Origin: a virus
Taxonomy: Duplodnaviria; Heunggongvirae; Uroviricota; Caudoviricetes
Direction: 5' to 3' (one strand)
Length of the DNA stretch: 37,193 nt
Virus record (IMG/VR): IMGVR_UViG_2534681832_000017
Coordinates: 1 to 37,193 of that record
Below the pieces are notes generated by a model. That model had not been told where the DNA came from and did no database searches. It was given only the letters and a program-made list of their open reading frames with translations. This document shows, in pieces, positions 304-6,389 of the stretch; the stretch's first letter is position 1, and each line of letters starts with the position of its first letter. Both the position numbers and the translations under genes were made by a program.

Positions 304-768
304 ATGCTCGCGCTTATGCGTAAGTCTCTGGGTTCTCTTCCTGCTGTTCCCCTGAGTGTTGAAAATCCCATTGAATTAACGCTGACCGACTGGGTACGTG
401 ATGGTAGTGCTCCACAGGGATTTCAAATGGGGGATGCGGCAGAACTTAAGGCAGTGCTTGAGGATGGCGGTATTGCCCGAGTGAAAAAGCAGGATTTGGG
501 AAGCGATGAAATTTCCACACACCTGGAAGCTGGCAAGCTCGTCACTAAGTTGGCACTCGACTGGCAGAACCGCATTAAATTTACACTGGACCATAACTTC
601 AGCCTTACCAGCGTCAAATTTGCGGATGAATTGCTTGAGCAGAACTCTGATATTGATAGTGAAGATGTTGCGCAGCGACTGGACGCAGATTTCTTCCTGT
701 TGACCAGTGAAATTTCGTGCCTGGTTGATGCTCTGGTAAATGCCCTTGGCGGAGAGGCTAAGCAGTGA
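304..768 (+). CDS. RdgC-like recombination-associated protein, C-terminal half only (possible truncated hrdC-type gene)
   Basis: ORF track; recalled RdgC C-terminal signature ([25 protein letters not shown]...LGGEA); in-frame similarity continues upstream only to a stop at 226-228, so the N-terminal half is missing; GTGA overlap with next gene. Confidence 0.45.
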
Positions 769-3700
769 AAGAGCTGTGCTATGGATCTGTTTGCAGTGGA
801 ATTGAAGCCGCGAGTATTGCCTGGGAACCGTTGGGTATGCGTCCGGCGTGGTTTGCTGAAATCGAGCCTTTTCCATCGGCCGTTCTTGCGCTCCGCTGGC
901 CCCATGTTGCCAACCTTGGCGACATGAAAAAACTTGCCAAAAAAGTCTTGGCTGGGGAAATCGAATCCCCTGACGTGCTCGTCGGGGGAACACCATGTTT
1001 TACCGCGGGGCATATGGTTCTTTGTAAAAATGGCTATAAACCAATAGAAAATGTTTGCCCTGGTGATTACGTAGTCAGTCATCTCGGGCGGTTACAACAA
1101 GTAAAAAGAGTTGGTTCAAAAATAGCTAATACGGGGTTACTTAATGCCGTTGGGCAGCCTTTAGGTATAAGAACAACCAATGACCATCCCTTCCTGGCTG
1201 TTCGGTGGAAAGCCCAAAACACCCGGAAAAATGGCACATATTTTAAGAGAGAGTTGTTGTCTGAACCGGAATGGCGAGCAGCATGTGATATGCCGGGATA
1301 TCAATGGTGCGCTCTAACTAATTTCAATATTGCATTTCCAGATATTTGTTCTCGGTTCTTGTCTGAAGAACAGGCTATGTATCTTGCGGGCGCTTATGTT
1401 GGCGATGGATATATTAGGAGATGGAGAGGTAAATCTAAGAAGGCGGTTGTTTTTGGCATAAATTGCCAGAAATTGAGAAAGTTTCATTGCCGCATACCAG
1501 AAAACATATTTTCCGTGGCAAGCGAAATCCGAGGGAGCATCAAAGTAACCTTGAATGATACGTGTTATGCCAATTGGCTTAATGAACATTTTGGCGAGTT
1601 AAGCCATGCTAAGCGTATCCCTGCATGGGTGATGTCGCATCCATTGCGTCATGTGTTTTTACAAGGCTATCTTGATACTGATGGGACACCAAGTGGTAAA
1701 GCGGGATTTAGAATTAATAGTGTTAGTTCTGCGCTTGCTTGGGGCGTTGCGGGGTTGTCACAGACTTGTGGTTATGTTTCTTCGGTCAGCTTTATTGAAG
1801 TTGAGCCCAAAAAAGTGATCGAGGATCGCGTGGTAAATCAACGGAATTATTATCAGGTAACAATCTGCCCGCAGAAATTGTCACGTAAATCAAGATTGGC
1901 TCATGGAATGCTTTTACGAACAGTCAAAGAGTTTAAATCGGTAGGCCTAGATACTGTATACAACATAGAAGTCGAAGGTGATCATTCCTATATCCTCAAT
2001 GGTGCGGTGGTCCATAACTGTCAGGCATTCAGTATCGCGGGATTACGTGGTGGGCTTGATGATGAGCGTGGCGCGCTAACTTTAAAGTATGTGGAGCTTG
2101 CAAATGCAATTGACGACAAACGGGCTGAGTCATTTCTCAAACCAGCCGTTATCGTCTGGGAAAATGTCCCAGGAGTCTTGTCATCGGCAGATAACGCCTT
2201 CGGATGTTTCCTTGCCGGATTGGCTGGAGAAGATGTGCCATTTGAACCAGGTGATCGACCTGAATCAGGAAAAAGCAACGCGTTCTGGCGGTGGGATGGC
2301 AAAACCGGTTGCCATGTTCCAAAGTGGCCGCAGTGTGGTTGTATTTATGGACCGCAGCGAAAAGTGGCTTGGAGAATCCTTGATGCCCAATACTTCGGAG
2401 TGGCACAACGACGCCGACGCGTGTTTGTTGTCGCAAGTGCTCGAACAGATCTCGATCCCGCAACGGTACTTTTTGAGTTCGAAGGCGTGCGCCGGAATAT
2501 TGCGCCGAGCAGAGGCGAGGGGAAGGAAACTACCAGATATACTTCAAACATCGCTATCAGAACTTGCGATGATACAAACATAATTGCCATGGCACATGGG
2601 CAAGGAGGGGCTGAGATAAAAACCGATAATTCGGCACCAACTTTGACATGTAACCATGAAGCACCAATTGTATTGCTCGGCGACGGTAGAATGCGCCGTC
2701 TTACCCCTGTCGAATGTGAAAGGCTGCAAGGTTTTCCTGATTGGCATACGTTGATCCCTACGGAAAAGCGTAAAAAAGTTAATTCAGATGAACTGGCATA
2801 TCTGCACAATCACTATCCAGATTTAAGCGAAGAAGAGGCCGCAATGCTTGCAGCTGACGGACCGCGTTACAAAGCGATCGGCAATAGTATGGCAATACCA
2901 GTAATGCGCTGGATTGGCGATCGGATTACTAAGGCCGTATGTCGGCAGAAAGAAGGAAGTGAAACAAAAGAGCGAAAAGTTAAACCAGCGGCAGAATTCG
3001 AACGGTCCATATTCAAATGGGCTGGTGGAAAATTTGGTGTTCTGGAACAAATCTTTCGCTATTTGCCAGAAGGGAAGCGCCTGATTGAACCTTTCGTTGG
3101 TGGCGGAGCTGTCTTCATGAATGCCGGATACCAGGAAAATCTGCTAAATGATGTGAATGCTGACCTGATTAACTTTTACAAGACTCTGCAACGCGAGGCG
3201 CATTCACTTATCACTCTGGCACATCGTTTCTTCCAGGACTACAACACACAGGAAGGATACCTGGCAGTACGGAATGCGTTTAACAAACAAGTCTATGATG
3301 ATTTACATCGCGCAGCGGCGTTTTTGTTCCTGAACCGACATTGTTTTAACGGATTGACGCGTTACAACCAGGCCGGTGAGTTCAATGTCGGTTATGGGAA
3401 GTATAAAACTCCGTATTTCCCATTACAGGAGATGGAAGCCTTCCTCGGTGCGGAAGGGCGGTCTGAGTTTGTATGCGGTGATTTTGCAGCGGTGATTGAA
3501 GCTGCCGGAGAAGGAGATGTCATCTTTTGCGATCCGCCGTATGAACCGCTTCCAAATACAGAGGGATTCACGAACTATTCCGGTCATGACTTTAAGTTTG
3601 AAGAGCAAAAACGCCTGGTGTCTCTGTTGACGGATGCTCATCGTCGAGGTGCAAAGGTTCTCATTACTAACAGTGGCGCGCCAAACATCAGAGAGCTTTA

Positions 3701-3806
3701 TCATGACAGTGGCTTCAGAGTGGAACCTCTTTTTGCCAGACGTTCTGTGTCTTGTAAGGGGGACACTCGAGGTGTAGCTCATGACGTTTTTGGTATATTG
3801 CTCTAA
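765..3806 (+). CDS. dmt: bifunctional DNA methyltransferase: N-terminal C5-cytosine MTase (interrupted by intein) fused to C-terminal Dam-type N6-adenine MTase
   Basis: GTG start coupled to upstream gene; C5 motifs: GGTP|CQAFSIAG (PCQ, split by insert), [28 protein letters not shown]; Dam motifs: [24 protein letters not shown]. Confidence 0.85.
996..2018 (+). mobile_element. intein (341 codons) with LAGLIDADG homing-endonuclease domain, inserted at catalytic Cys of the C5-MTase PCQ motif
   Basis: Insert begins CFTAGHMV (Hint block A-like), contains TTNDHPF (block B-like), [12 protein letters not shown] (1380-1415) and [11 protein letters not shown] (1656-1688), ends NGAVVHN followed by Cys+1 (2019); excision restores [12 protein letters not shown]. 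Confidence 0.8.
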
Positions 3807-3813
3807 TAAATTT
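3797..3813 (+). promoter_or_regulatory. C1-type operator (exact 17/17 match to ATTGCTCTAATAAATTT), overlaps dmt stop codon
   Basis: Exact match to the asymmetric 17-bp P1 C1 operator consensus as I recall it. Confidence 0.6.
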
Positions 3814-3987
3814 ATTAGTGTAATATCGCCTCAATGAATCGTGATTTATAGAGCGATTTAGCTGTTAGCCGCGACAGGCGCGGCGGTAAGCATGGCTGGG
3901 CCTAGTCCTCCCAGACAAACCACCGAGTTGCCAGGTTGACCATGCGCCTAAGTGGCAACGCCGAAGTGCGTTACGAGCTTCCAGTTT

Positions 3988-4013
3988 GCCCATCTTCGGG
4001 TGGGCGTTTTTTT
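3988..4013 (+). terminator. rho-independent terminator
   Basis: Stem GCCCATC/GGTGGGC with TTCG tetraloop followed by T7 run. Confidence 0.6.
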
Positions 4014-4479
4014 CAGGGTTTTCGTCATGGTTAGCGACTTTGCGGCGGTTTAGAAACTGACCATTAAAGTAAATGCAAACGATGATCTGATGATGGTAGC
4101 GGCCTAAGAAGCCAGATGCCACGGGGTATGAGTCGTCCCCCGTCAAAAAAATCGACCGCAGAGTGTCCCCGTCTGTGTATTAGGGAACGGGGAGGCACAA
4201 CAGGTAAGGGCGCTGGTGTGATTAACCAGATGAACGAGAAGGGGCCATCTGTTGGTCAGCGTCCTTTCCTGTTGCGTTTTCTTTTCAGCGTAACAGCGGT
4301 GCTTAACAGCACTTTGGGTACAGTTCCACGAATTTACGGGTATATCCCGTCATGCTGAAGGCGCTAATCACGCTGGAAGCCAGGGTTGTGCATCCCCTGT
4401 TACCGAATTGCAGCTAGGGCGCGGTGCGCCGAAAAGCATACGGAGGTGGAAGCCCTCGCCGGAGACGTACCCGGCAAGT

Positions 4480-4555
4480 GATGGTGTAGCTCAGCGGTTA
4501 GAGCAGTTGGCTGTTAACCAACTGGTCGGTAGTTCGAATCCACCCACCATCGCCA
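4480..4555 (+). tRNA. tRNA-Asn (anticodon GUU)
   Basis: Cloverleaf: acceptor GATGGTG/CACCATC, D-arm GCTC-AGCGGTTA-GAGC, anticodon loop CTGTTAA, T-loop TTCGAAT, discriminator G, encoded CCA; one A-C mismatch in T-stem. Confidence 0.8.
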
Positions 4556-4560
4556 CTTTA

Positions 4561-4647
4561 GGGGAGTTAGTCCGTAGGGGTAGCGGGGTAGACTGTAAAT
4601 CTACTGTCATTGCGACTCGGGTGGTTCGACTCCATCACTCCCCACCA
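4561..4647 (+). tRNA. tRNA-Tyr-like (anticodon GUA), type II with long variable arm; non-canonical D-arm
   Basis: Acceptor GGGGAGT/ACTCCCC 7 bp, anticodon arm GTAGA-CTGTAAA-TCTAC, variable arm with GTC/GAC hairpin, T-arm GGTGG-TTCGACT-CCATC, encoded CCA; D-stem only forms with a 3-4 nt linker after the acceptor stem. Confidence 0.55.
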
Positions 4648-4651
4648 CATT

Positions 4652-4727
4652 GCCGATTTAGCTCAGTTGGTAGAGCAGTCGCTTTGTAAGCGAATGGTCA
4701 GCGGTTCGATCCCGTTAATCGGCACCA
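4652..4727 (+). tRNA. tRNA-Thr (anticodon UGU)
   Basis: Acceptor GCCGATT/AATCGGC, D-arm GCTC-AGTTGGTA-GAGC, anticodon loop TTTGTAA, T-loop TTCGATC, encoded CCA; resembles E. coli tRNA-Thr(UGU) from memory. Confidence 0.85.
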
Positions 4728-6313: not shown

Positions 6314-6389
6314 GGCCCCTTAGCTCAGTGGTTAGAGCTGGCGACTCATAATCGCACGGTCACCGGTTCAAGTCCGGTAGGGGCCACCA
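6314..6389 (+). tRNA. tRNA-Ile2-like (anticodon CAU; body resembles E. coli ileX rather than tRNA-Met)
   Basis: Acceptor GGCCCCT/AGGGGCC, D-arm GCTC-AGTGGTTA-GAGC, anticodon loop CTCATAA, T-loop TTCAAGT, encoded CCA. Confidence 0.75.

What the first reader, a model, noticed from the sequence alone, without database searches (positions are those of the whole stretch)
996..2018. Intein with LAGLIDADG homing endonuclease inserted at the catalytic cysteine of the dmt C5-methyltransferase
The 1013-codon dmt ORF has every C5-cytosine MTase motif, but the PCQ motif is split: the N-extein ends VLVGGTP at nt 995 and the C-extein starts [12 protein letters not shown] at nt 2019. The 341 codons between them begin Cys-Phe-Thr-Ala-Gly-His-Met-Val (Hint block A-like), contain TTNDHPF (block B-like) and two LAGLIDADG-type motifs ([12 protein letters not shown] 1380-1415, [11 protein letters not shown] 1656-1688), and end NGAVVHN immediately before Cys+1. 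Excision would recreate [12 protein letters not shown], essentially the M.HhaI motif GFPCQAFSISG. The +1 nucleophile is the methyltransferase catalytic Cys, so splicing would be required for cytosine methylation. I am not aware of a described intein at this position in a P1-family methyltransferase, but I cannot search databases.
Basis: partly seen in the sequence, partly recalled or inferred. Interest (0 to 1): 0.9.

Follow-up and report, generated by a model that had tools for sequence, protein, structure and literature searches.

The report
Mobile intein splitting phage P1 methyltransferase
The P1-family DNA methyltransferase gene dmt is interrupted, exactly at its catalytic cysteine, by an intact self-splicing protein element (intein) that carries its own DNA-cutting enzyme; it is real, unannotated and apparently still spreading among E. 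coli phage-plasmids, but it belongs to a known kind of element.

Summary
ORF 765-3806 (1013 codons) is P1-family Dmt, and nt 996-2018 (341 codons) is a clean in-frame insert between GGTP and CQAFSIAG.

- The insert has Cys1, block B TxxH, a terminal His-Asn and Cys+1.
- It has two LAGLIDADG motifs, each with its catalytic Asp.
- The AlphaFold model (pLDDT 91.6) matches PI-SceI and other intein endonucleases (E 3e-17).
- P7 and reference P1 lack exactly these 1023 nt.
- Removing the insert restores the M.HhaI-like motif IV.

Among 5426 complete E. coli genomes, 152 carry the intein and 337 carry the empty site. It also sits in a laboratory P1vir stock, and no record annotates it. The intein is 3-7 times less diverse than its own flanks. 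It lies on several dmt backgrounds and is tied to private flank variants, which fits recent homing.

It is not a new kind of element. At least 137 clusters at 26-56% identity occupy the same P|C site in C5-methyltransferases across many phyla, and C-5 methylase inteins are already listed for actinobacteriophages.

Two features are mildly unusual: a native Pro at -1 and Asn at block F position 4.

Verdict: a new member of a known kind, of moderate interest.

The parts
765..3806 (+). dmt precursor ORF: 1013 codons, GTG start overlapping the hrdC stop, predicted 113.1 kDa
   Evidence: It is 98.9% identical to dmt of P1vir OP279344.
765..995 (+). N-extein, 77 aa: C5-MTase motif I region up to ...VLVGGTP. 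The Pro(-1) codon is CCA at 993-995.
   Evidence: The third base of the Pro(-1) codon is A in 12/12 intein-plus alleles and T in 11/11 intein-minus alleles.
996..2018 (+). Intein, 341 aa, 38.3 kDa: a class 1 HINT splicing domain with a nested LAGLIDADG homing endonuclease
   Evidence: GC is 0.427 against 0.545 in the N-extein and 0.483 in the C-extein.
996..1325 (+). HINT N-terminal lobe (approx. intein aa 1-110). It includes block A (Cys1-Phe-Thr-Ala-Gly, 996-1010) and block B (TTNDHPF, 1173-1193; Thr61 and His64).
   Evidence: The beta-strand region is taken from the model. Cys1, Thr61 and His64 are invariant in 133/133 family clusters.
1353..1874 (+). LAGLIDADG endonuclease domain (approx. 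intein aa 120-293). Motif 1 is at 1380-1415 (catalytic Asp137) and motif 2 at 1656-1688 (catalytic Asp229).
   Evidence: Pfam LAGLIDADG_3 is above its cut-off. The alpha/beta elements are in the model. Foldseek matches PI-SceI, I-SceI and I-DmoI. Asp137 is kept in 126/133 clusters, Asp229 in 130/133 and Lys206 in 131/133.
1881..2018 (+). HINT C-terminal lobe (approx. intein aa 296-341) with blocks F and G: [23 protein letters not shown] (1950-2018). It holds Asn323 at F:4, His340 and Asn341.
   Evidence: TIGR01443 matches here. The region aligns with the Spl DnaX mini-intein C-terminus. Asn341 is kept in 133/133 clusters and His340 in 119/133; F:4 is Asn in 115 and Asp in 17.
2019..2021 (+). 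Cys+1 codon (TGT). It is both the splice-junction nucleophile and the motif IV catalytic cysteine of the C5-MTase.
   Evidence: It aligns with the PCQ cysteine of M.HhaI. Cys+1 is kept in 132/133 family clusters.
2019..2999 (+). C-extein, first part: the rest of the C5-cytosine methyltransferase (motifs IV-X, with the short P7-type variable region)
   Evidence: Pfam PF00145. The variable region is compared.
3000..3779 (+). C-extein, second part: Dam-type N6-adenine methyltransferase domain
   Evidence: TIGR00571 at 8e-74 and PF02086 at 2e-56.

Best explanation
Nt 996-2018 encode a functional class 1 intein with a nested LAGLIDADG homing endonuclease. It sits in motif IV (PCQ) of the C5-cytosine methyltransferase half of P1-family Dmt.

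Proposed mechanism; none of these steps has been observed, and all are inferred from conserved residues and fold.
1. The 113-kDa precursor is translated.
2. Cys78 (intein Cys1) attacks the Pro77 carbonyl in an N-S acyl shift, assisted by Thr/His of block B.
3. Cys419 (+1) takes over the N-extein by trans-thioesterification.
4. Asn418 cyclises and releases the 38-kDa intein.
5. An S-N shift leaves a normal Pro-Cys bond. This recreates [12 protein letters not shown] and a 75-kDa Dmt whose +1 cysteine can then serve as the methyltransferase nucleophile.
6. The freed intein is predicted to cut intein-less dmt alleles around ...GGAACACCT|TGTCAGGCATTC... when two P1-like elements share a cell. Repair from the intein-bearing copy then copies the intein in (homing).

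The C5-methylation function should depend on splicing. The Dam domain, which lies wholly in the C-extein, may not.
For: Anatomy
- The insert has Cys1, TxxH, HN|C and two LAGLIDADG motifs ending in Asp.
- The model has pLDDT 91.6 and pTM 0.88. Its top 16 PDB matches are all intein-associated LAGLIDADG endonucleases: PI-SceI E 3e-17, TliVMA TM 0.62, PI-PfuI, PhoVMA and PI-PkoII.

Clean indel
- There is a 341-aa indel against P7 and P1.
- The spliced sequence restores a contiguous M.HhaI-like motif IV.

Selection
- 12/12 sampled copies are intact with identical catalytic motifs, and pN/pS is 0.27.
- Across 133 clusters at 26-56% identity, Cys1, Thr and His of block B and the terminal Asn are 133/133.
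- In the same clusters Cys+1 is 132/133 and both endonuclease acidic residues are kept in 125/133.

Mobility
- 152 of 5426 E. coli genomes carry the intein and 337 carry the empty site.
- It occurs in Escherichia coli, E. albertii, E. fergusonii, Salmonella and Shigella plasmids.
- All four combinations of intein presence or absence with short or long variable region exist.
- Intein pi is 0.0066, against 0.047 for the N-extein and 0.019 for the C-extein in the same alleles.
- The intein sits on two C-extein haplotypes, each shared with intein-less alleles, and the haplotype switch lies within 25 nt of the intein.
- The -1 base separates the two classes perfectly: 12 A against 11 T.
- None of the 337 empty sites comes closer than 98.0% or 95.8% to the intein-linked flanks.
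- GC is 0.43 against about 0.50 in the exteins.
Against: - No experiment exists; splicing, cleavage and homing are all inferred.
- Pro at -1 is reported to block or slow most tested inteins (PMC6486613).
- Block F position 4 is Asn rather than the usual Asp (PMC4031507).
- For this sequence Hint_2 falls 0.3 bits below Pfam's cut-off and Intein_splicing is well below it.
- The two intein-plus flank haplotypes carry different, non-overlapping private variants: -22, -48 and -104 in one, and -7 to -16 in the other. The N-extein differs by 7.1% between groups while the intein differs by 0.9%. One donor with simple co-conversion tracts does not explain this.
- P1-like phage-plasmids recombine readily anyway, so ordinary recombination could move the segment without the endonuclease.
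- The allele panel has 23 sequences that are not phylogenetically independent.
Confidence: 0.75

Rival explanations
1. The element is a true intein that still splices, but its endonuclease no longer drives spread. The patchy distribution would come from ordinary homologous recombination among P1-like phage-plasmids and from clonal expansion.
For: No cleavage data exist. P1-like elements exchange segments freely; the variable region and the C-extein haplotypes are already shuffled. The private flank variants do not fit a single simple co-conversion tract.
Against: Both catalytic Asp residues and Lys206 are intact in all 12 copies, and are kept in 125-131 of 133 distant relatives. The intein is 3-7 times less diverse than its own flanks. 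Haplotype switches lie within 25 nt of the intein boundary. Truncated copies are rare: 3 of 129 plasmid records cover less than 80% of the intein.
Confidence: 0.15
2. The element is a decayed intein that no longer splices. The C5-methyltransferase half would then be dead in intein-plus alleles, and the gene would be kept only for its C-terminal Dam domain.
For: Pro(-1) and Asn at F:4 are both unfavourable or atypical. Dam is the only Dmt activity I found tied to a phenotype, namely pac-site packaging (PMC12707154). The P1 and P7 records call the C5 activity only 'perhaps'. dmt is sometimes truncated by IS elements.
Against: All splice-site residues are invariant in 12/12 local copies and in 132-133 of 133 distant relatives, which share the same Pro(-1) and mostly the same Asn. 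That pattern is not expected without selection for splicing. The extein C5 motifs are under purifying selection, with pN/pS 0.12-0.15.
Confidence: 0.07
3. The insert is not an intein but another kind of in-frame insertion, such as a ShiLan-type homing insert with a hidden out-of-frame nuclease, a bacterial intein-like domain, or a plain domain insertion tolerated by the enzyme.
For: In-frame, non-splicing homing insertions in phage methylases do exist (PMC11855218).
Against: Full splicing motifs and the HINT fold are present. The nuclease is in frame. The only other ORF of at least 60 aa overlapping the insert is a 91-aa minus-strand ORF. The +1 nucleophile is conserved. A 341-aa insert inside the catalytic PCQ loop is unlikely to be tolerated.
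Confidence: 0.02

Closest known systems
PI-SceI (yeast VMA1 intein) and the archaeal VMA, PI-PfuI and PI-PkoII inteins
   Same: Class 1 splicing residues (Cys1, TxxH, HN, Cys+1). The HINT domain is split by a double-motif LAGLIDADG endonuclease. These are the best structural matches.
   Different: Sequence identity is only 10-17%. At 341 aa it is smaller than PI-SceI (454 aa); whether it has an extra DNA-recognition region was not examined. The host is a phage-plasmid methyltransferase. It has Pro at -1 and Asn at F:4.
Inteins of actinobacteriophage DNA methylases, both N6/N4 and C-5 (PMC5050341; bioRxiv 10.1101/2025.01.02.630785)
   Same: Phage-borne LAGLIDADG inteins in DNA methyltransferase genes with sporadic distribution.
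   Different: Those papers do not mention enterobacterial or P1-family hosts in the text I read. The main texts I searched list these inteins by host protein only; I did not look for their insertion sites or check the supplements.
The wider C5-MTase motif IV (PCQ) intein family seen in public data, auto-named 'Hint domain-containing protein' or 'DOD-type homing endonuclease'
   Same: Same insertion point, xxP|CF...HN|CQxxSxAG. 137 of 148 representatives are inserted after Pro, and 60/60 scanned carry PF00145 plus Hint_2. The family spans Proteobacteria, Chloroflexota, Clostridia, Actinomycetota and Bacteroidota.
   Different: The nearest non-P1 relatives are only 47-56% identical. The P1 copy sits in a C5+Dam fusion protein. 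One other such fusion, P0022, has a 56%-identical intein.
Ssp DnaX intein
   Same: It is reported as an exception that splices with Pro at -1 (PMC6486613). A related DnaX mini-intein (Spl DnaX, 7cfv) is the best PDB sequence match to blocks F/G.
   Different: The aligned DnaX mini-intein (Spl DnaX) has Asp at F:4 (VYDIEV against VYNIEV). In Ssp DnaX, Pro(-1) tolerance was shown with proline placed at the junction of a model fusion protein; here Pro(-1) is the native, conserved context.
ShiLan domain of actinobacteriophage methylases (PMC11855218)
   Same: [quoted passage not shown]
   Different: ShiLan has no splicing motifs and hides an out-of-frame HNH nuclease. The P1 element has full splicing motifs and an in-frame LAGLIDADG nuclease.

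Membership tests
Class 1 intein (HINT splicing domain) | Cys or Ser at intein position 1 | tested here: met
   Cys78 of Dmt; invariant in 133/133 relatives.
Class 1 intein (HINT splicing domain) | Block B Thr-x-x-His | tested here: met
   T-N-D-H at intein residues 61-64; Thr and His are 133/133.
Class 1 intein (HINT splicing domain) | C-terminal (His-)Asn followed by Cys, Ser or Thr at +1 | tested here: met
   VVHN|C. TIGR01443 scores 25.9-28.9 bits against a 15.6 cut-off. Asn is 133/133 and Cys+1 is 132/133.
Class 1 intein (HINT splicing domain) | HINT fold formed by the N- and C-terminal parts of the insert | tested here: met
   Model pLDDT 91.6. Whole-length matches to PI-SceI, TliVMA and PI-PfuI at E 3e-17 to 3e-11.
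Class 1 intein (HINT splicing domain) | Curated Hint/intein profile above its threshold | tested here: inconclusive
   Hint_2 scores 28.1 against a 28.4 cut-off and Intein_splicing 21.7 against 35.8; only TIGR01443 passes. Relatives match Hint_2 at E <= 0.001 in 60/60.
Class 1 intein (HINT splicing domain) | In-frame insertion at a conserved site, with orthologues that lack exactly the insert | tested here: met
   A 341-aa indel at P|C against P7, MH422554 and reference P1. 337 E. coli genomes have the empty site.
Class 1 intein (HINT splicing domain) | Autocatalytic excision with ligation of the exteins | not testable with these tools
   Needs a protein experiment. Predicted sizes are 113.1 -> 74.8 + 38.3 kDa.
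LAGLIDADG homing endonuclease (monomeric, two motifs) | Two LAGLIDADG helices, each ending in a catalytic acidic residue | tested here: met
   LAGAYVGDG (Asp137) and LQGYLDTDG (Asp229). Pfam LAGLIDADG_3 scores 34.2 bits against a 22.5 cut-off. Both acidic residues are kept in 125/133 relatives.
LAGLIDADG homing endonuclease (monomeric, two motifs) | LAGLIDADG endonuclease fold | tested here: met
   Foldseek matches to I-SceI, I-DmoI, I-OnuI and I-AniI over the central ~180 residues, E 4e-5 to 1e-3.
LAGLIDADG homing endonuclease (monomeric, two motifs) | Site-specific cleavage of the intein-less allele | not testable with these tools
   Needs an enzyme assay on the P7 or P1 empty site.
LAGLIDADG homing endonuclease (monomeric, two motifs) | Population signature of homing: presence/absence polymorphism, an element younger than its host gene, linked flank markers | tested here: met
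   152 intein-plus against 337 intein-minus genomes. Pi is 0.0066 against 0.019-0.047. The -1 A/T split is 12:0 against 0:11, with private flank variants. Dependence on the nuclease itself is not shown.
C5-cytosine DNA methyltransferase (PF00145), as host protein | Motif IV Pro-Cys-Gln with the catalytic Cys, contiguous with motifs I-X | tested here: met
   This holds only after conceptual splicing: [12 protein letters not shown] aligns with M.HhaI aGfPCQAFSIsG, and PF00145 scores 129.9 bits over residues 8-135.
Bacterial intein-like (BIL) domain | A HINT domain, usually without a +1 nucleophile or a nested endonuclease, found in variable non-conserved proteins | tested here: not met
   Cys+1 is conserved, a LAGLIDADG domain is present and the host site is a catalytic motif. 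PDB BIL 2lwy matches only at E 0.18.
ShiLan-type in-frame homing insert | No splicing motifs; nuclease encoded out of frame | tested here: not met
   Splicing motifs are present and the nuclease is in frame. The only other-frame ORF of at least 60 aa is a 91-aa minus-strand ORF at 1314-1589.

The most novel reading that the evidence does not exclude
The motif IV inteins of C5-methyltransferases, this one included, may be a mechanistically specialised subgroup. They would have evolved to splice after a native Pro(-1), with Asn instead of Asp at block F position 4. In P1 the intein might also act as a conditional switch, for example redox-sensitive through its 11 cysteines and the Cys1/Cys+1 pair. 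Such a switch would time C5 methylation separately from the Dam activity of the same polypeptide.
Probability: 0.12. Interest if true: 0.7.

Novelty: new member of a known kind. Interest (0 to 1): 0.45.

Why it matters
- An intact, apparently mobile intein sits unannotated in about 3% of complete E. coli genomes and about 31% of those that carry P1-type dmt. It is also in a laboratory P1vir stock. Genome annotation pipelines call the protein simply a Dam-family methyltransferase.
- It offers a convenient E. coli-native system for measuring intein homing between phage-plasmids.
- It means the C5-methylation activity of Dmt should depend on protein splicing in these alleles. That is relevant to anyone studying P1 methylation or anti-restriction.
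- The family natively splices after proline, a junction that most engineered inteins handle badly. Its members could therefore be useful for protein engineering if the activity is confirmed.

Tried and rejected
Literature
- Searches for a described P1/dmt intein found nothing specific. They found only general listings of methylase inteins in actinobacteriophages.
- Searches failed on input limits.

Sequence-only PDB search
- It gave weak hits: Spl DnaX at 1.5e-3 and PI-PkoII at 0.024. The fold comparison was needed to settle the matter.

Readings considered and rejected
- Group I/II intron: the reading frame is continuous and protein-level motifs are present.
- Bacterial intein-like domain and ShiLan-type insert: see the membership test.
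- An ancestral intein with repeated precise loss: the intein is far less diverse than its flanks, and no empty site carries the intein-linked -1 A or flank variants.
- A single donor with simple co-conversion tracts: the two intein-plus flank groups carry non-overlapping private variants. Two introductions, or unsampled recipient lineages, are more likely. This remains unresolved.

Internal late promoter
- The P7 record annotates a predicted internal late promoter, LPdam2. I checked it as a possible route to intein-independent Dam expression. Its -22 box differs in the window (AAGTTAATT against AAGTTTCTT), and it is only a prediction, so I drew no conclusion.
- The sigma-70 scan found nothing informative.
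Full report
**1. The observation**

ORF 765-3806 on the plus strand has 1013 codons. Its GTG start overlaps the stop codon of the upstream hrdC/rdgC gene. The N-terminal part ends ...DVLVGGTP at nt 995. Nt 996-2018 encode 341 residues that start CFTAGHMV and end NGAVVHN. They contain TTNDHPF (1173-1193), [12 protein letters not shown] (1380-1415) and [11 protein letters not shown] (1656-1688). The sequence resumes [12 protein letters not shown] at 2019. Every coordinate in the finding is exact.

The window is a P1-like phage-plasmid. Its first 25 kb are 98-99% identical over about 80% of their length to Punavirus records. The ORF is dmt, 98.9% identical to dmt of OP279344.

**2. What the insert is**

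*Profile searches.* LAGLIDADG_3 scores 34.2 bits against a 22.5 cut-off. Hint_2 covers the first 49 residues at 28.1 bits, just under its 28.4 cut-off. Intein_splicing matches at 2e-4, below its cut-off. NCBIfam TIGR01443, the intein C-terminal splicing region, scores 25.9-28.9 bits against 15.6. Weaker matches fall on the intein parts of intein-containing RNR, GyrA, RFC, RtcB and DnaB models.

*Structure.* An AlphaFold2 model built on ten relatives has mean pLDDT 91.6 and pTM 0.88. It shows beta-rich N- and C-terminal parts around an alpha/beta core. Foldseek against the PDB puts intein homing endonucleases in the top 16 places: PI-SceI E 3e-17, TliVMA E 6e-17 with TM 0.62, then PI-PfuI, PhoVMA and PI-PkoII. 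Free-standing LAGLIDADG enzymes (I-SceI, I-DmoI, I-OnuI) match the central part.

*Class.* The residues needed for class 1 splicing are all present: Cys1, Thr61 and His64 of block B, His340-Asn341 and Cys+1. Each LAGLIDADG motif ends in Asp-Gly.

**3. The host gene with and without the insert**

The three intein-less Dmt/Dam proteins examined (P7, MH422554 and reference P1) lack exactly residues 78-418. Joining the exteins gives [12 protein letters not shown], which aligns with M.HhaI aGfPCQAFSIsG. The Pfam DNA_methylase match rises from 104.9 bits in four pieces to 129.9 bits, with one stretch over residues 8-135.

The +1 cysteine is therefore the motif IV catalytic cysteine. The inference that C5 methylation requires splicing is sound, because a 341-residue domain inside the catalytic loop should prevent it from forming. 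The Dam domain (residues 746-1005) lies wholly in the C-extein. The only Dmt phenotype I found in the literature, pac-site packaging in dam-minus hosts, belongs to that domain (PMC12707154). Selection for splicing must therefore come from the C5 half.

**4. Distribution**

- The 1023-nt insert occurs in 152 of 5426 complete E. coli genomes, at 148 plasmid and 5 chromosomal places, at 95-100% identity.
- It occurs in 129 PLSDB plasmids: Escherichia (including E. albertii and E. fergusonii), Salmonella and Shigella.
- It always lies inside dmt and is never annotated as an intein. PGAP calls the protein a Dam-family methyltransferase.
- A 400-nt query spanning the empty site shows that 492 genomes carry dmt and 337 have the uninterrupted junction. 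About 31% of dmt-carrying genomes are therefore occupied.
- OP279344, which has the intein, is the P1vir stock of a laboratory collection (PMC10250240). The reference P1 sequence and P7 lack the intein.

**5. Signs of mobility**

I compared 12 intein-plus and 11 intein-minus alleles.

- All four combinations of intein presence with the short (P7-type) or long (P1-type) variable region exist.
- Mean pairwise diversity is 0.0066 in the intein. In the same 12 alleles it is 0.047 in the 231-nt N-extein and 0.019 in the first 480 nt of the C-extein. All 12 copies are open, their catalytic motifs are identical, and pN/pS is 0.27.
- Downstream, the intein sits on two C-extein haplotypes. Each is shared with intein-less alleles, and the switch lies within 25 nt of the intein end.
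- The third base of the Pro(-1) codon is A in 12/12 intein-plus alleles and T in 11/11 intein-minus alleles (Fisher 7e-7, not corrected for relatedness).
- Upstream, intein-plus alleles carry private variants over about 100 nt. One group has them at -22, -48 and -104. The other has them at -7, -10, -13 and -16.
- Artificially spliced junctions from the two groups match none of the 337 empty sites better than 98.0% and 95.8%. These variants are therefore strictly intein-linked in this collection.
- GC is 0.427 in the intein, against 0.545 and 0.483 in the exteins.

Together this fits an element younger than its host gene that has entered several dmt lineages, carrying short stretches of donor flank with it. 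The two different flank haplotypes next to nearly identical inteins (0.9% against 7.1% divergence) are not explained by one donor. Two introductions, or unsampled recipient lineages, are possible. I leave this open.

**6. The wider family**

An exhaustive HMMER search with the intein found 4287 clusters at E <= 1e-3 and 186 at E <= 1e-30.

- Of 148 full-length representatives, 137 are inserted after Pro and 117 end HN|CQ.
- All 60 representatives scanned carry PF00145 plus Hint_2.
- In species-representative genomes the same GGxP|C...HN|CQ junction appears in Alpha-, Beta- and Epsilonproteobacteria, Chloroflexota, Clostridia, Actinomycetota and Bacteroidota. More distant relatives sit in other host genes.
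- Across 133 clusters at 26-56% identity, Cys1, block B Thr and His and the terminal Asn are invariant. Cys+1 is 132/133 and both endonuclease acidic residues are kept in 125/133.
- One mini-intein without the nuclease occupies the same site (P0019).

This deep conservation is the strongest indirect evidence that these inteins splice and that most still cut DNA.

**7. What is unusual**

The native -1 residue is proline in 137 of 148 representatives. Published work states that natural and engineered inteins generally fail or splice poorly with Pro at -1, with Ssp DnaX as an exception (PMC6486613).

Block F position 4 is Asn in the P1 copy and in 115 of 133 relatives, and Asp in 17. A review gives Asp, then Cys, then Trp as the common residues there, and implicates Asp in activating Cys+1 (PMC4031507). 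Whether these two traits are connected is speculation.

**8. Comparison with what is known**

Inteins with LAGLIDADG nucleases in phage replication and modification genes are well known. Mycobacteriophage N6/N4 methylase inteins (PMC5050341) and actinobacteriophage C-5 methylase inteins (bioRxiv 10.1101/2025.01.02.630785) are already listed. Automatic annotation labels some relatives 'Hint domain-containing' or 'DOD-type homing endonuclease'.

I found no paper that describes the P1-family element, or that discusses the PCQ site. The library does not cover most subscription journals, and I could not consult InBase.

I therefore class this as a new member of a known kind. It is of moderate interest because of where it sits (the classical P1 family, including a laboratory P1vir stock) and because of its Pro(-1) junction.

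**9. Confidence**

- That the insert is an intein with a LAGLIDADG domain: about 0.97.
- That it splices: about 0.85.
- That the nuclease is still driving spread: about 0.7.
- The combined statement: 0.75.

Noticed in passing
L004 (AF234172, reference P1) locus 1720-1722; corresponds to window 984-986: Reference P1 mod749::IS5 c1.100 alone among 23 alleles has GGG->TGG, giving VLVWGTP (Gly->Trp three residues before the catalytic PCQ), 12 nt upstream of the intein insertion point. It could impair C5 activity or alter the endonuclease target.
   Followed up: partly
window approx. 2510-2700 (dmt residues ~583-645); L002, L004, L014, L018: The region between the conserved C5-MTase blocks is modular. 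There is a short P7-type and a long P1-type (82 residues longer), plus other gene lengths of 2289 nt (L018) and 3447 nt (L014). It assorts independently of the intein.
   Followed up: partly
window 4480-4727 and 6314-6389: tRNA genes Asn(gtt), Tyr(gta, 87 nt) and Thr(tgt) lie just downstream of dmt, and there is a tRNA-Met(cat). Reference P1 and P7 are annotated with only Asn and Thr at this spot. Phage Ro157c2YLVW has the same three as the window.
   Followed up: no
L001 (OP279344.1) 1501-4542: A laboratory P1vir stock used in Argonaute studies carries the intein-bearing dmt with the short variable region. It therefore differs from the reference P1 sequence at this locus.
   Followed up: yes
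L037, L039, L041, L048; L045, L081; L049, L054; L052, L066, L091, L095: More distant relatives of this intein (22-31% identity) sit at other junctions: xSP(D/E)|C...HN|C(T/K)HxS(K/Q)A, HPP|C...HN|CTxLCNSGVRWL, PHA|C...HN|CFxxSV and YIEG|C...HN|C(T/S)AP. These are possible cases of inteins switching host genes.
   Followed up: no
P0010 (Mannheimia haemolytica, 578 contigs), P0020 (Rodentibacter), P0019: Different decay states occur at the same site. P0010 has an intact intein whose C-extein is replaced after CQ by 18 unrelated residues. P0020 is an ORF that starts inside a ~52-residue intein remnant followed by a full C-extein. P0019 is a mini-intein lacking the nuclease.
   Followed up: no
L012 4488-5023; L017 3794-4400; L022 1125-1829; H88 (NZ_CP070953.1): dmt is truncated next to IS elements in some plasmids: IS200/IS605 with TnpB, and IS3. 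In L022 it is truncated with an IS26 copy just upstream. One E. fergusonii plasmid keeps only the first 320 nt of the intein. The gene is evidently dispensable in the plasmid state.
   Followed up: no
window 2776-2784 vs L003 (P7) 2489-2497: The -22 box of the internal late promoter LPdam2 predicted in the P7 record (AAGTTTCTT) reads AAGTTAATT in the window. If the P7 promoter is real, it could express the Dam part independently of the intein.
   Followed up: partly
P0022 (1148 aa): A second C5+Dam fusion methyltransferase from an unidentified source carries a 56%-identical intein at the same site. The fusion architecture with a resident intein is therefore not limited to the P1 lineage.
   Followed up: no
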